A stretch of 64,000 nt of DNA from Pocillopora damicornis (Eukaryota): positions 620,001 to 684,000 of the forward strand of contig NW_020846761.1 in NCBI RefSeq assembly GCF_003704095.1. Direction: 5' to 3'. The translations under genes were made by a program, and so were the position numbers. A model generated the notes under the pieces. That model did not search any database and was not told where the DNA came from. It saw only the letters and a list, made by a program, of their open reading frames with translations. Positions 13,303 through 58,569 of the stretch are shown here, piece by piece; positions within the stretch are counted from its first letter, which is position 1, and each line of letters opens with the position of its first letter.

Positions 13303-13373
13303 GCCACGCTCATTTTCAATCGAGTGTGGATCCTGTGAAAGTCTCGAAACTTTGATCCGTGATATAAATTCTG

Positions 13374-52300: not shown

Positions 52301-55007
52301 CAATGAATGTGTGATCATAATTACCTTCCCCTGTACACAATAAGGAATCATCTGTGCTTCCATTGGTAACCTCTTGTCTGCTTACAGGCTTGGTCAGTTT
52401 GATTGGCAGCCAATATCCTGTGTTGTTTTGGTAAAACTACACGACATAATAAACAATTATTATGATACATCTGGTACATCAACCCTTTATAAACACATTC
52501 AATAAGAACTGCTTCACATGTTTCTTCCACCTACTTTAATTAAGAAATTGCTTAGAGTTGAAAATTTTTTATAAAATTAAAGGAAACATTTAGTCACAAA
52601 ATCTGAGCCCTCAATCAACCAAATTTTAATCATGCTAAAGAAAATAAAGTGATTTCAGACATGATTTGCTTTGCATTTAGAGTAAAAAGTCTTTTTCCCC
52701 ACTGCAGGATATGCTTTCACTGAGGGATGGCAAGTTCATTTACATGTAAATTTCAACTTACCAAGCAACTTCCCTGTTTCTTAACATGCATGGAAAGTCT
52801 CTATTTTTCTCAAAATTATCTTGGTCAAAGATGCACCCTCTCCTTCCCACTCCCACCCTTCACTTCTCGGGAGTTGTGCCTTAGCTGCTAAAGATTAAAG
52901 TTGTCTTTTCATTTCACCTTGCCATCTCCTTTCAACAGTACTGAGTTTAGTATATAGAGTGTTAATTAGAAGATGTAAGTATGTACTGTAAAGTAAAGAG
53001 GTACTGAGTATAGTTTATAGTATGTTAATTAAAAGATGTAAGTAAGTAGTGTAATGTGGAGATTTATAATTATGATAATTTCAATTTAACTTTAATGAGG
53101 TTGTCTGAAAGTGAAGGAAAATTGTTATGTAAACTTCATCTATTTAACTAAGACATTTTGTAAGTTATTAGTAGTTAGTTGTGGGTGGGGTTAGTATGTG
53201 GGTGAAAGTAGTTTTTAACTTAAATTTAAGTCTTTAACACTTAATTTGTCATAGCTTCAACTGAAACTTGGTAATCTTCAATGTTGATACTCACTGCCAC
53301 CATGTCAGAGATGCTGTCAAAATACTCTCGATCATTAACTGTGAATTGCATCTTCCTGCTCCACGACACCTTCCAGTGGCTGGTTTTGCCATCAATACTA
53401 TGACATCAAAGAGCAGAACAACCCTTTCAATGTTGAAATATTACCTCAAAATCTATGAAGAGCTATGAGGTTCAAAAGTAATAAATTAATGGGGGGAGGA
53501 GAGGTAGCTAAGTATGTATTATCATGAATAAATGTTCATTAACATTATGCAGTAACTGGACGTAGACTGTAGTACAGCCAAACTTACCATACAAAAATGA
53601 TGTAATCTCCAGGATAACTTAAACTCTCTTTGACAAGGAATTGTCCACTGCTTGCAGAGGACATGATCTGTTCTGCTTGGTCACAAGATATTTTCCCATG
53701 GAACCAGCTGTGTTGAAAGCCGCAAAGAAAACAAATTTATAATAAATTACTACAGGGGGCATGTGCATGTACTGTAACTTATATAAAACTGCTTTTACCC
53801 TTTTTTCTTTTCATAATCCAAACTCTATACTAATAATTGCTGTAGACTTTTTGTTAAGGTCTGTGTTGCAACTACAAAGAATCTAACTTTCTTTTGGTTC
53901 AGTCTTGAATCTAGCCCAGTATTTTTTCTTTTTCCTTTTTTTTATAAACTTGGATTGGATGAATTATATAAATTGGATGAAAATTAATTGGCCTGCATCA
54001 TATGAAGGAAAACGTTTAAATAAAACGTTTAAAACATTGAGCAAACAAACGAATGATACTCAGCAAAGTAAGGTGTCACCAATGTGAAAAAAGATGGATG
54101 GACAATTGAATGAATTAGTGAGCAGATGAACAAAGGAAAATAATGCGGAGAATGAATTAAACATTATACAGACATAAGAATGAAACTCAGCAATGAAAAC
54201 ATCTATCACCATGTAAATAAATGGAATAAGAGATGAATGATCGATTGAATGTCAATGAGCGAAGAAATGAATAAAAAAATTTTAACACGCAAGCTCATAT
54301 CTGGTTATTTTAGCGCGAAATAATGCGAGTAATCATTATACCTATAGTTGCTCATGTCAATATTCAAATAATACATTACTACCTTTCTAATTATTGGAAA
54401 ATGTACCAAATATGACGGCGTCTTGATTTCTCGGAAATTTACTTATTAAAGAAGATCACGTACTTGTGCTGTTCGCGCACTCATATAACATCAAAACTTA
54501 CTTTTTCTCCCATGGATGGATTTGCACGTACACAACTGAACCATGATTGACTCCAGATTCGTCCAAACTGTTAAAGGATTTCCCTAAGCATTTGTTCTGG
54601 TAAGGCGAGTCTATTTGGCGCAGAAACAGACTGTGTTCTGGAACACCAAGCATCGCCCGACTCGACAACTTCTTCCTCAGATCGTTGATGGTGGAAGATT
54701 GCCCTTCTTCGAGAGTTACCTTCAGAACTCTTCCTGTTTCGGTCACAGCATTGATAAAAAATGAATTTACTGAGTTCAGCTGTTTGTAGGCCACATGAAT
54801 GAGCGAGCCTGGTTTTATCAAATACCCCACACCAATGCTATGACAATCGATCTCTTCGCCATTTCTTTTCTGCGAAAGACGCTGAGAGGTAGGAGGAAGC
54901 CCAGTAGCTTGAGATATCACTTCTTTTAGCTTGTCAACAGCGTCTGAAGATTGCACCTCCACAGCAATTGTCTTTGCGTCCAATAAGTTGACATGAACAC
55001 GCATCAT
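43308..55007 (-). CDS. ROCO-family GTPase with architecture UBL-UBL-SH2-UBL-SH2-Roc-COR-(Cys/His-rich)-Death, 13 exons, 1349 aa
   Basis: Exons 55007-54502, 53707-53588, 53397-53295, 52436-52325, 51173-50897, 50363-50235, 49391-49292, 48908-48836, 48231-47686, 46956-45483, 44900-44639, 43966-43939, 43627-43308 total 4050 nt, all GT-AG and phase-compatible. SH2 motifs WFHGKIS..FLVKES and WYVGKMS..FLIRDS. Roc motifs GQDHAGKTS, STAGV, WDFAGQ, VGTHAD. COR motifs IPLQW, LHFLCDCGAVLYF, VILDPQWL, YLVPSML. Death domain LAHDVGNKWEQLCRIL...W..AQGSGATYDAL. Confidence 0.85.
44464..44489. repeat. Poly-C tract (26 nt), intronic
   Basis: Read directly from the sequence; homopolymer length is uncertain. Confidence 0.85.
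47279..47520. mobile_element. ~240-bp MITE in a ROCO gene intron
   Basis: Terminal inverted repeats ctggccctggttgtttaaag / ctttgaacaactcggccctg (15/20), plus subterminal TAACCC(A/T)GGGTTA palindromes at both ends. Confidence 0.7.
51425..51860. mobile_element. ~436-bp MITE with 25-bp terminal inverted repeats in a ROCO gene intron
   Basis: tttattttatagatactgatgaaat matches the reverse complement of atttcatcagtacctatataataaa at 23/25. No coding capacity. Confidence 0.75.
52938..53063. repeat. 63-bp tandem duplication, intronic
   Basis: gtactgagt.tagt.tatag..tgttaatta.aagatgtaagta begins at both 52938 and 53001. Confidence 0.8.
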
Positions 55008-55164
55008 GAAACCTGCTAAAATTCGACAAAACCCGAAACAAATCCCAGATGAATCCGTCAAATCACTTTAAAATTATATCTGGGATTTTCAATTGTCTCT
55101 TTATCTTCTTAGAAAGCGCCTGTGTGATTTTAAGCGACGCAAATCAATGAACACATGACGAAGA

Positions 55165-55219
55165 GGAACTGAAAGTGACGTCACGTTTCCGTTTCTGGGA
55201 AACGAACCAATTCTTCCGG
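55165..55219. promoter_or_regulatory. Dense TF-site cluster upstream of the ROCO gene (EICE, CRE, ISRE, GAS and ETS-like)
   Basis: GGAACTGAAA 55165-55174; TGACGTCA 55176-55183; GTTTCCGTTTC (=GAAACGGAAAC) 55185-55195; TTCTGGGAA 55193-55201; CTTCCGG 55213-55219. Confidence 0.55.
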
Positions 55220-55658
55220 TGGTAATACTGCTGATTCACATGGTTTCTTGGTTTCCTTGCCTTTTTTCTCTCTGATCTCTCTTCAACAATCAGTATTAAA
55301 ATCGACAGGAAAAAGTTAGGATTACAAGTAAACAGTGCATTCGTTTTAAAGGATGGGGGCTCGGTGGGAGGGAAGGGAGGGTAAGTTAGTGAGTGCCACA
55401 AATAATTCTGCATTCTTGACTGGTAAACCAAGAATCTGTTGCAAATCCAGTCTCTCTTTATCAGTAAAGTATGTCTGAGTTTATAAATCAATGCCCGACT
55501 AATGATTTGATAATAATTATGCTCTAACTCTTTCGTTTAGGAGGACCGAGCCTTCACCACATAACCTCGGAAGACTGGTAATGAGAGAGTCTCAAACTTC
55601 TTGAGCCCGCGATTTTCACGACCGGAGTAAATGCGAAGAGAAAAAAGGTGGTTGAAAT

Positions 55659-58569
55659 ATGGATTTGGATAGCAAAATTTCTGCCCTAAAAGATTTTACT
55701 TCCTTTGGATCGTCATCGAAAAATGACTCATCTTCCTCACGGGTCAATCAAAGTTCAAATTCTTCTTCCTCGAATGGATGGGGAAATTGGATTGCTAAAG
55801 GGGAGAAGGACCCATTTTTACCCTCTTTGGTGGGTTTTGACCGAAAATTTTTAATTTTTTCTCCTTTTGGTTTTTGAACATCTTATATATCAGTCACTAG
55901 TTCGATGATATAAATCATATCACTTTCAACTTAGCTTCAATGGCAGAGCAATCAAAGCTACATAAATATAAAACGATAATCTCGCTAAATATGACACGTC
56001 ATTAGTAGCTCTGGGCCTTCCAAGGGGTTTGAACGGCTAGCGACGTGACCCTGGAAACGTTATCATCAGCGAAAGAATACAAAATTACCTCGCTAACGCT
56101 CAGCGATGTACGTGATGAGCATTGTAAATCAAAAGGACAGGCTGGAACACTTTACCTGCAGCTGAATGTACATGTAGACATCTGTCATTAATACTATTTA
56201 TGTAAGACTTGTCAGAAAATTCATTTTATTTCATTTTTTATTTTATTTTCATTGAGTTGGAAATCTCGTCAGTTTCAGAGTACAAGAGACCCTTATAATT
56301 ATTGGAAGAAAATCCCATGACAGGATTATCTGTATCTATGGGCATGGTGACTTACTTATTTTCATTATTGTTTACAGTCTAAAACACAACGTATCACAGG
56401 TTTCTTTCTGTTGCTGCTGTTAGGGATCTTCTGCTTTGTAATGGTAAGTTAAAAGGATTAAGATTATGTACACCTCTCCACAGGTTGTTCTCTAACAAAT
56501 AACTGTTACTTATCTTTTCACTTATTACTGTTAAATTAATAATTGTACTTAGCAATACTCCTTACCCTCTACACCCTATCATTATTCATATTTACCAAGC
56601 ATTTCTCTTCACATTTACTGTCATGGTGAAGACAAGGAGAATTTGTGTGGCAGTCAGGAGCTTCTTAAATTGGTGATCATGTCCTTTATTCTCATGACCT
56701 TTACATATGATTTTAGGATGATACTGTAAGGAGAAATAAAAAGCCAGTTGCTCTAAGGGGTTAAAGGGATACAAGTATCTTACTGGAAAATTAAACATGG
56801 AGCAGTCACCCTTCACTTTTTTCTGAAAATTGTTATTTCTGTGTCATATAACTGTTCTGGTTTCTTAACTCATTAAAGGCTGGTCTTATTGCACCTGTTA
56901 TGCTGTTAAAGGCAAGAAAATTTGTCCTTCTCTACACAATGGGAAGTTTGTTTACCATAGGAAGGTAATGTTTTAAATGTATCTCAAGCCCTGAGCTCCT
57001 TGTTAATCAGTTGGGTACACCCTTAAAATTGATTTTTTCCACTATGAAAGGTTCAATTTAGAAGTTCACTTGAGTCATTGATCAAGTTATGTGTGACTTA
57101 TTTCCGATTGCAGGGGAATATATGATATTCACATGGCCAGAATTTTGTGTTCAATTGTTGTCATAGTATTGCTCGCAAGTCCATTTAAGCAAAAGAGTGA
57201 GATGTATCAGCAGCTTTAGAATATAAATTTAAAACCCCACATTGCAATTGGAAATGTAATTTTTTGTTTGTCACATATATGGTAAATTGATATTTGGATA
57301 AAGACAATTTTAAAACACATTTATGGGAAATAAATTCAAAGTCCAGCTGCTTGTTAACTCAGTGTGCAGAAATGGTACTTCAACTGTAAATTTAAAATAA
57401 CTATTAAAAGAATTCTTTCTACAGAAAACATTTAGTGTCTTTAAACAAAGATGAATTCTATGGCGTTGTGATATTTTGAAATTAAGATGCGCTATGTATA
57501 AAATAAAGCTGAAAATTTGATAAACTCAATGATGTAGAAAAATTTTTTTTTTCAAATGTGAAAATATAAATTGTTAATTCACTGAGCGAGAGGAAGGTAT
57601 CACGTTCTTTAAACAGGTGAAATTTTGATATTTCATTTAATGTTTATGTAATGAACATGTTTTGTACACAGATGTATTGTCAAAAAGCAGCTAAAGATTC
57701 GTGTGTGTCTGGTCGTATGTTTGTACAGTCATGTGACTATAAAAGGCCTCCTTATCTTTTCTACTGGCATTTTAATCAGTGTCCAAATTCATTTCAACCA
57801 AGATTTCTTTAGTAAGGTTTGCATCACATCCTTTTCTTTGGTTTCAGTTTTTCTTTACTCTGGGGTCCAGTCAATCATGTCAAACATCTGTGTTCACTTG
57901 AAAGGCTTCCTTTTACTGCTGCTTACTTTGGATCAATGTTTGCAACACTTTACATGGCCATGATTGTAAGTTGTGATGCCTGTTCAATAAAAAATTATTT
58001 CCCTGTTGAATATAGATAAATCAATTATTAACCGATTATCTAAAAGTATAATTCTTATGTGTCTTCATTGATCGTCTAACATAGATGAGATAAGGTTTCT
58101 CTCACATTCAAGCAAATTTGTATTCAAATACTTACAGACTGACATCATACCAATTCTTTTGTCAGGTAAAGAGTACATTGTTGACAGCAGTTTGTGCTTT
58201 GGTCCAAATTCTTGCCCTAGTATGGTAAGTTTGGTTCAGATATTATTCTGAGCCACGGGATTGCAATGTTCCCCAATGAAGCACATTGTGCAGAAGGCTA
58301 AACAAAGTTAAAACAAATGACGGCGTTTATTCAGAAACTTATGGGAAGTAAAGCTAAATAAAATGATGTCATGTTGAAATGTAACTGACTTGTTTATTCA
58401 CAAGGTAACATTACAATGTTAACATTAACCAGGCAATTTTTGCTTCTCTGTTTTTTTCCATAGGTACTTTGTCAGCTATATTCCTGGTGGGACAACAGGC
58501 ATGAAATTTTTTACCAAGCTTTTCTCATCTGCAGTAACAAAAACAGTTTCTAGCACCCTTCCTGTCTAG
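55659..58569 (+). CDS. SFT2D3: Vesicle transport protein SFT2 family (SFT2C/yeast Sft2-like), 6 exons
   Basis: Exons 55659-55829, 56378-56443, 56879-56964, 57848-57965, 58166-58224, 58464-58569. Motifs LSKTQRI, LLKARKFVLLYTMGSLF, SFSLLWGP..H, ERLPFTAAY, WYFVSYIPGG and C-terminal LPV; four TM segments. Confidence 0.88.
56561..56768 (-). mobile_element. MITE relic, copy B (same family as 27027-27215)
   Basis: Reverse complement aligns with 27027-27215; ends are ccctttaacccctt / gggtgtagagggtaag. Confidence 0.6.

What the first reader, a model, noticed from the sequence alone, without database searches (positions are those of the whole stretch)
55165..55219. Interferon-style promoter: EICE, CRE, ISRE, GAS and ETS motifs packed into 55 bp upstream of the ROCO gene
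Seen: exact matches to GGAANNGAAA (55165), TGACGTCA (55176), GAAANNGAAA on the minus strand (55186-55195), TTCN3GAA (55193) and CCGGAAG on the minus strand (55213), abutting or overlapping, 160-210 bp upstream of the ATG. Known: these are IRF/ETS, CREB/ATF, IRF and STAT sites in vertebrates. Cnidarians have IRF and STAT but no interferon. Inference: an enhanceosome-like inducible promoter, supporting an immune role for the ROCO gene. The interval is shared with the divergent SFT2 gene, so the ETS and CRE sites may be housekeeping.
Basis: partly seen in the sequence, partly recalled or inferred. Interest (0 to 1): 0.7.

Follow-up and report, generated by a model that had tools for sequence, protein, structure and literature searches.

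The report
Shared coral promoter with STAT site
The motif cluster is real and sits where two back-to-back coral genes likely start; its ETS and CRE sites recur in distant corals and likely give everyday expression, while its STAT- and IRF-like sites are missing there and are at most a likely recent immune add-on, not an ancient interferon-style switch.

Summary
All five motifs are at the stated coordinates. The cluster exceeds chance: 0 of 450 simulated windows match it. It lies between a single-copy UBL/SH2-ROC-COR-death Roco gene and SFT2D3. An RNA contig shows an SFT2-strand splice donor 2 bp from the ETS site, so the cluster is probably their shared start region.

Conservation splits the motifs. 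Four of four orthologous promoters with enough sequence (three lineages) keep ETS then CRE. None has an IRF site or a strict GAS.

In this genome strict IRF, GAS and kB motifs are enriched upstream of IRF and CARD genes. The GAS here has that form. Both IRF sites fail the strict pattern and score low.

Best reading: a constitutive ETS-CRE bidirectional core with a lineage-restricted STAT(/IRF) add-on that has about even odds of being functional. Induction and binding are untested. The general pattern is already published for Nematostella (PMC8476169). The enhanceosome reading and the immune role for Roco are only partly supported.

The parts
55213..55219 (-). ETS core CCGGAAG; part of the conserved promoter core
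   Evidence: CCGGAAG present upstream of a CRE in L002, L003, L005, L006; removed by a 9-bp deletion in one low-depth contig of X19
55176..55183 (.). Full CRE palindrome TGACGTCA; part of the conserved promoter core
   Evidence: present at -271 to -303 in 4 of 4 orthologous promoters; 11 of 766 background 500-bp windows carry one
55193..55201 (.). GAS palindrome (TTCCCAGAA on the Roco strand); the best of the immune-type motifs, lineage-restricted
   Evidence: same 9-mer upstream of IRF gene L049 and CARD loci L071, L074; no strict GAS in 4 of 4 orthologous promoters
55186..55195 (-). ISRE-like GAAACGGAAA; weak, contains an ETS-type CGGAA core
   Evidence: fails strict IRF pattern; scores below all 14 IRF-like sites from IRF/CARD upstream regions, and 66% of background matches score as high; same 10-mer upstream of a control Ras-family gene L157
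55165..55174 (+). EICE-like GGAACTGAAA; moderate match
   Evidence: top quarter of background matches but below 79% of the immune-promoter sites; flanking base 55175 reads T instead of G in runs X18 and X20 from two studies
55106..55114 (.).
55222..55540 (+). GT-AG intron in the 5' UTR of SFT2D3; its donor lies 2 bp from the ETS site, so the upstream exon runs into the motif cluster
   Evidence: joint 55220>55540 (cut +1) in one RNA contig of X15, depth 65; ends checked; seen in 1 of 6 RNA runs laid
54889..55540 (+). Possible alternative SFT2D3 5' intron with a donor inside Roco exon 1 (antisense); weak
   Evidence: one contig of X16, only 27 letters on the short side
55659..58569 (+). SFT2D3/SFT2C-type vesicle transport gene, coding span
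   Evidence: Pfam Got1/Sft2, homologues, splice joints in 3-4 of 4 RNA runs, exon 1 76% identical to L006
43308..55007 (-). Roco gene: two clear ubiquitin-like domains (plus a weak third), two SH2 domains, ROC, COR-A and a C-terminal death-like domain; about 12 exons; exon 1 single-copy
   Evidence: Pfam on exons, exon map by tblastn with P0001/P0004, orthologues in Stylophora, Oculina, Montipora, Acropora, one strong match in the genome

Best explanation
The 55 bp are the likely shared start region of a head-to-head Roco/SFT2D3 gene pair, where a conserved ETS + CRE core likely drives everyday transcription both ways and a lineage-restricted GAS with two weak IRF-like sites likely adds a modest STAT(/IRF) input. 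Shown: the motifs, their non-random clustering, the SFT2-strand splice donor at 55221, conservation of ETS and CRE, absence of IRF and strict GAS sites in four orthologous promoters, and enrichment of strict GAS/IRF/kB motifs upstream of IRF and CARD genes in this genome. Inferred: that ETS-family and CREB/ATF-family proteins bind the core, that the added sites arose by point changes in an ETS-rich promoter (each of the four non-CRE motifs contains a GGAA core), and that STAT binds the GAS and raises Roco and/or SFT2D3 output on immune stimulation.
For: Core: ETS upstream of CRE in L002, L003, L005, L006, with spacing 28, 32, 28 and 84 bp against 36 here. The local alignment of the cluster to L003/L005 pairs ETS with ETS and CRE with CRE (score 31; 2 and 1 of 300 shuffles reach it). 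The oriented ETS-CRE pair occurs 17 times in the genome against 6 for the reversed control; among the other 16 are places just before the N-terminal exons of a PITP and a Rab gene. Head-to-head order is kept in L006. Spliced or exon-matching contigs for both genes occur in all 6 RNA runs laid.

Add-on: strict GAS in 6 of 15 IRF/CARD upstream regions against 2 of 44 Ras-family controls and 50 of 766 background windows; strict IRF 6 of 15 against 4 of 44 and 16 of 766; 5 of 12 each after merging paralogue pairs, p=0.003 and 0.016. None of the 16 other ETS-CRE pairs has both an IRF site and a GAS within 100 bp. Chance addition is 44 of 600,000. Nematostella poly(I:C)-induced promoters are enriched for STAT, IRF, NF-kB and ETS motifs (PMC8476169, passages).
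Against: No induction, binding or TSS data; contigs cannot show starts. Positional homology is uncertain: the global alignment puts the cluster against a different stretch, and local scores for L002, L004 and L006 are not above shuffles (27, 86 and 192 of 300). The four orthologous promoters look like one clade (85-99% identical to each other, about 80% to Oculina); no Stylophora promoter was obtained, and L004 (276 bp only) shows no exact ETS or CRE. The add-on could be neutral: both IRF sites are weak, natural variants touch the EICE flank and the ETS site, and a Rab control promoter (L158) also has ETS + IRF + CRE. The strict patterns were fixed after I had seen the immune loci. A STAT gene was not detected in this genome by two Pfam searches (exon-split search, not proof of absence). 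Single IRF or STAT knockdowns did not reduce cGAMP-induced genes in Nematostella (PMC8713801, passages).
Confidence: 0.47

Rival explanations
1. Purely housekeeping bidirectional ETS-CRE promoter; the EICE, ISRE and GAS are neutral look-alikes produced by drift in a GGAA-rich promoter.
For: IRF and strict GAS absent in 4 of 4 orthologous promoters; IRF sites weak; all four non-CRE motifs contain a GGAA core, and the orthologues carry several ETS cores; GAS/ISRE overlap not enriched genome-wide, 22 vs 22; loose IRF matches in 10 of 44 control promoters; variants at 55175 and 55207; partner gene is a vesicle-transport gene.
Against: Chance of two IRF-like sites plus a GAS around a fixed ETS-CRE pair is 44 of 600,000; 0 of 16 other ETS-CRE pairs have both; two strict GAS within 200 bp here against 2 of 44 control promoters with any.
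Confidence: 0.38
2. One reading: an enhanceosome-like, strongly inducible promoter in which IRF, STAT, CREB/ATF and ETS bind cooperatively and switch on the Roco gene as an immune effector.
For: Five sites abut in 55 bp; such motifs mark immune genes here and in Nematostella (PMC8476169); ETS, STAT and IRF homologues are induced in Nematostella immune cells (PMC13319465, passages); the protein has SH2 and death-like domains.
Against: The arrangement is not conserved, whereas fixed spacing and conservation are hallmarks of the IFN-beta enhanceosome (recalled); no kB site within 500 bp; GAS and ISRE overlap by 3 bp, so co-binding is doubtful (inference); transcripts are assembled in all 6 RNA runs laid, whose treatment is not known; gene is single-copy and syntenic, unlike the variable Roco paralogues.
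Confidence: 0.12
3. Chance aggregation of short motifs with no regulatory role.
For: The motif set was chosen after seeing the sequence.
Against: ETS and CRE kept in 4 of 4 orthologous promoters against 4.7% and 1.4% of background windows; 0 of 450 simulations; splice donor adjacent.
Confidence: 0.03

Closest known systems
Promoters of poly(I:C)-induced genes in Nematostella vectensis (Lewandowska et al. 2021, PMC8476169; passages read)
   Same: STAT, IRF and ETS motifs near the start of a cnidarian gene, in an animal without interferon.
   Different: That result is statistical enrichment over genes known to be induced. Here it is one promoter with no induction data, no kB site, and IRF/GAS sites that are not conserved.
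Vertebrate ETS + CRE proximal promoters bound by GABPalpha and CREB (PMC3464117; search listing and start of abstract only) and bidirectional housekeeping promoters (PMC10887517; listing only)
   Same: ETS core and full CRE close together between divergent genes; the pair is enriched in this genome and conserved.
   Different: The published motif has ETS and CRE overlapping; here they are 28-84 bp apart. Binding by coral factors is untested.
IFN-beta enhanceosome and ISRE+GAS composite ISG promoters (recalled; PMC10287828 seen as listing only)
   Same: Dense, abutting bZIP, IRF-like and GAS sites.
   Different: No NF-kB site, degenerate IRF sites, arrangement not conserved, induction not shown.
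Roco proteins (LRRK1/2, DAPK1, MFHAS1 recalled; brown-algal ROCOs as candidate immune receptors, PMC11378527, listing only)
   Same: ROC-COR tandem, with a death-like domain at the C-terminus as in DAPK1 (recalled).
   Different: No kinase or LRR domain found; the N-terminus has ubiquitin-like domains and two CSK/SHP2-like SH2 domains.

Membership tests
Enhanceosome-type inducible promoter (IFN-beta kind) | Dense, abutting sites for several factor families | tested here: met
   5 sites of 4 classes in 55 bp; 0 of 450 simulations
Enhanceosome-type inducible promoter (IFN-beta kind) | Order, spacing and sequence of all sites conserved | tested here: not met
   IRF and strict GAS absent in 4 of 4 orthologous promoters; ETS-CRE spacing 28-84 bp. 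The orthologues are distant (51-54% exon 1 identity).
Enhanceosome-type inducible promoter (IFN-beta kind) | NF-kB site in the cluster | tested here: not met
   no kB match within 500 bp upstream of the Roco ATG
Enhanceosome-type inducible promoter (IFN-beta kind) | Cooperative binding and switch-like induction | not testable with these tools
   no binding or treatment data reachable
ISRE/IRF-driven ISG-like promoter | Consensus IRF site GAAAN(C/T)GAAA(C/G) (consensus recalled) | tested here: not met
   0 exact strict matches; both sites are one mismatch away, background 0.36 such sites per 500 bp
ISRE/IRF-driven ISG-like promoter | IRF factors encoded by the host | tested here: met
   4 IRF DNA-binding domains in G000
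GAS/STAT-responsive promoter | Consensus GAS TTC(C/T)N(A/G)GAA near the start | tested here: met
   two strict matches, 55193 and 55106; same form upstream of IRF/CARD genes
GAS/STAT-responsive promoter | STAT encoded by the host | tested here: inconclusive
   no match for PF02865 or PF02864 in an exon-by-exon search; a single STAT is reported in Nematostella (PMC8713801)
GAS/STAT-responsive promoter | STAT binding and stimulus-dependent induction | not testable with these tools
   Stylophora cGAMP table and cell atlas could not be read
Bidirectional ETS-CRE housekeeping promoter | Divergent genes starting within 1 kb | tested here: met
   ATGs about 650 bp apart here, about 960 bp in L006; SFT2-strand donor at 55221
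Bidirectional ETS-CRE housekeeping promoter | Conserved ETS and CRE sites | tested here: met
   4 of 4 orthologous promoters with more than 450 bp upstream; none in L004, which has only 276 bp
Bidirectional ETS-CRE housekeeping promoter | Constitutive expression of both genes | tested here: inconclusive
   exon contigs of both genes in 6 of 6 RNA runs laid, but these runs were found with this stretch and contigs give no level

The most novel reading that the evidence does not exclude
One coral family rewired an old housekeeping bidirectional promoter into its interferon-free STAT/IRF defence network by turning ETS-type sites into GAS and IRF sites. This put an undescribed ubiquitin-like/SH2/Roco/death-domain GTPase under STAT control, where its two SH2 domains could read phosphotyrosine signals and feed back on the same pathway.
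Probability: 0.2. Interest if true: 0.62.

Novelty: new member of a known kind. Interest (0 to 1): 0.3.

Why it matters
The general idea, interferon-style promoter motifs in cnidarians, is in print (PMC8476169), but whether cnidarian IRF and STAT actually use these sites is open, since single knockdowns showed no effect (PMC8713801). This promoter offers a compact natural contrast: one coral lineage has the GAS and IRF-like sites and its relatives have only the ETS-CRE core. Comparing the two reporters would test directly whether the extra sites confer inducibility. As evidence for an immune role of the Roco gene it is weak.

Tried and rejected
1. Expression evidence for the Stylophora orthologue (LOC111332016 / XP_022793007): 0 hits in the 6 supplements of the preprint PMC9980059, whose text has no RNA-seq. 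The journal version is not held. The data archive of PMC13319465 was too large to read. The paper reader closed, so the Stylophora cell atlas (PMC8162421) and later papers were not read. These unseen supplements may bear directly on induction.
2. More orthologous promoters: none in viral contigs or prokaryote genomes. L007 has no upstream sequence.
3. Close-relative conservation from sequencing runs: too little divergence to test. X12 shows 0 differences; a roughly 90%-identical contig set in X16 stops at 55137, short of the cluster.
4. TSS mapping: only contigs were served. Contigs over Roco exon 1 reach about 55153-55364 in different runs, which cannot fix a start.
5. Cluster as a repeat or paralogue copy: rejected, one DNA match and one strong protein match.
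6. GAS/ISRE overlap as a genome-wide grammar: 22 vs 22; the reversed control partly resembles an IRF site, and the 21 other loci were not gene-annotated.
7. GBP loci: 11 of 19 were scanned and left out of the enrichment test, because most matches are internal exons. The single OAS locus (a C-terminal domain match) was not used. Controls were 24 of 30 Ras loci starting at profile position 1-4 plus 20 chosen first exons.
8. STAT gene search was negative and uninformative.
9. Global alignment of promoters gave a different homology from local alignment; left unresolved.

Full report
Observation. In 395,512 bases taken from 40 other stretches of the genome there are two clusters of three or more hits, both IRF-only. 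The motif set was chosen after seeing the sequence, so these numbers overstate the surprise. A second GAS-type palindrome lies at 55106.

The two genes. The minus-strand gene spans 43308-55007 in about 12 exons. It encodes two clear ubiquitin-like domains and a weak third, two SH2 domains, ROC, COR-A and a death-like domain below the Pfam cut-off. The SH2 domains are closest to CSK and SHP2 among solved structures. The same architecture occurs in Stylophora, Oculina, Montipora and Acropora, and exon 1 has one strong match in the genome. The plus-strand gene is an SFT2D3/SFT2C-type vesicle transport gene with its ATG near 55659. The head-to-head order is kept in locus L006. Named SFT2 and Roco proteins share a contig length in Stylophora, Acropora digitifera and Montipora (with 19), which hints at linkage there too. 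The host is a pocilloporid coral by these hits.

Where the cluster sits. Six RNA runs were laid, all as contigs. In X15 a contig splices from 55221 to 55541 with GT-AG on the SFT2 strand, so an SFT2D3 5' exon ends 2 bp from the ETS site; this joint was seen in 1 of 6 runs. X16 shows a weaker alternative donor at 54888. Contigs over Roco exon 1 reach about 55153 to 55364. Contigs cannot show starts, but the picture fits two overlapping 5' ends at the cluster (inference).

Conservation. One metagenome scan gave six related loci, five with upstream DNA. L002, L003, L005 and L006 all carry CCGGAAG followed by TGACGTCA, 28, 32, 28 and 84 bp apart against 36 bp here. None has a loose IRF match, a strict IRF match or a strict GAS in 500 bp; three carry a loose TTCN3GAA at -63 to -85 that L002 lacks. 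L003 and L005 are 98.8% identical, so these are three lineages, probably of one clade about 80% identical to Oculina and 51-54% identical to the window in exon 1. L004 has only 276 bp and no exact motif, though an 8-of-9 match to the GAS lies at -183. Local alignment pairs the cluster with the ETS-CRE stretch of L003/L005 (2 and 1 of 300 shuffles), but not significantly with L002, L004 or L006, and the global alignment chooses another stretch. Under either alignment the IRF and GAS sites have no exact counterpart. Among near relatives, base 55175, just 3' of the EICE, reads T in two studies (X18, X20), and one low-depth contig (X19) has a 9-bp deletion that removes the ETS site.

Do such motifs mean anything in this genome? 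The genome has four IRF genes. In the 500 bp before the N-terminal domain of 4 IRF and 11 CARD_2 loci, strict IRF sites occur in 6 of 15, strict GAS in 6 of 15 and kB in 4 of 15. The figures are 4, 2 and 1 of 44 for Ras-family controls, and 16, 50 and 14 of 766 for background windows. After merging three paralogue or same-gene pairs it is 5 of 12 for both IRF and GAS (p=0.016 and 0.003). Caveats: the strict patterns follow recalled vertebrate consensus but were fixed after I saw these loci; domain starts stand in for TSSs; the CARD loci were not all confirmed as RIG-I-like receptors; 11 GBP loci were scanned and dropped. Against this yardstick the GAS in the finding is typical, and the same 11-mer lies upstream of IRF gene L049. 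The ISRE-like site scores below all 14 immune-promoter sites and the EICE below 79% of them, on a small matrix. The ETS-CRE pair is enriched genome-wide (17 vs 6); none of the other 16 has both IRF and GAS within 100 bp, one has IRF and three have a loose GAS. The GAS/ISRE overlap is not enriched (22 vs 22). With ETS and CRE fixed, two IRF sites plus a GAS arise in 44 of 600,000 promoter-like simulations.

Mechanism. The most likely reading is two layers. The old layer is an ETS + CRE core serving both genes, like vertebrate GABP/CREB promoters (PMC3464117, listing only). The newer layer is a good GAS and two weak IRF-like sites. All four non-CRE motifs contain a GGAA core, and the orthologues carry several ETS cores, so few point changes could create them (inference). 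Low chance odds and genome-wide enrichment argue that they were selected. Non-conservation, weak IRF matches and natural variants argue for drift. I put function of the add-on at about even odds: 0.47 modest input, 0.12 full enhanceosome, 0.38 neutral, 0.03 all chance.

What is known. Lewandowska et al. (PMC8476169; passages) report STAT, IRF, NF-kB and ETS motif enrichment in poly(I:C)-induced Nematostella promoters. Margolis et al. (PMC8713801; passages) found no effect of single IRF or STAT knockdown on cGAMP-induced genes and describe NF-kB-dependent ones. Kozlovski et al. (PMC13319465; passages) list IRF, ETS and STAT homologues induced in immune cells and do not mention Roco. Three searches for this Roco architecture or gene pair listed no paper on it (listings only, open-access library only). 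Earlier notes of this scan on the same genome describe GAS clusters that are said to be kept in distant corals (unchecked); if right, that makes the lack of conservation here more telling. The paper reader closed, and the Stylophora expression tables that could settle induction were not seen.

Verdict. The feature is real, the promoter reading is well supported, and the kind is known. It is not a member of the enhanceosome class by the tests run. The immune role of the Roco gene stays open. Interest 0.3.

Noticed in passing
window 43308-55007 (-): Roco protein with ubiquitin-like domains, two SH2 domains, ROC-COR and a death-like domain, no kinase; conserved across stony corals and labelled 'uncharacterized' or 'CSK' by sources. 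No paper on it was listed in three searches.
   Followed up: partly
L048 (G000:C580, about 195-220 bp before the IRF domain match at 80421): IRF gene promoter with abutting CRE, GAS and kB sites, much like the vertebrate IRF1 promoter's GAS + kB pair (recalled). A better enhanceosome candidate than this finding.
   Followed up: partly
L070-L075, L079 (CARD_2 loci): Consensus IRF sites (for example two in L075 at -197 and -182) and GAS overlapping kB (L071, L072, L079) upstream of CARD genes.
   Followed up: partly
window 55137/55138: 50-letter insertion relative to the window in 5 of 8 runs laid (X14, X17, X18, X19, X20), between the cluster and the Roco ATG; it changes motif-to-ATG distance.
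   Followed up: no
window 54888-55221: SFT2D3 5' exons appear to overlap the Roco 5' end in antisense.
   Followed up: partly
run X16, window 54605-55137: A second contig set about 90% identical to Roco exon 1; not matched by a second copy in G000, so possibly another species in the sample.
   Followed up: no
L003 and L005, about -600 to -500: A degenerate tandem copy of the ETS-CRE block, in which the ETS pair has drifted toward an IRF-like sequence.
   Followed up: no
L002, L003, L005, L006, about -190 to -145: A 14-bp block AGCTTAGATAGCTT identical in all four orthologous promoters and absent from the window.
   Followed up: no
window 13368-20581: Three closely related single-ORF Forkhead genes in a row (Pfam checked for the first).
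   Followed up: no
L158 / L018 (G000:C2969, upstream of 438683): Rab-family gene promoter with ETS, IRF-like and CRE sites in about 80 bp.
   Followed up: partly
window 56586-56762: High-copy repeat inside an SFT2D3 intron; summed contig depth 3,400-7,100 in RNA runs.
   Followed up: no
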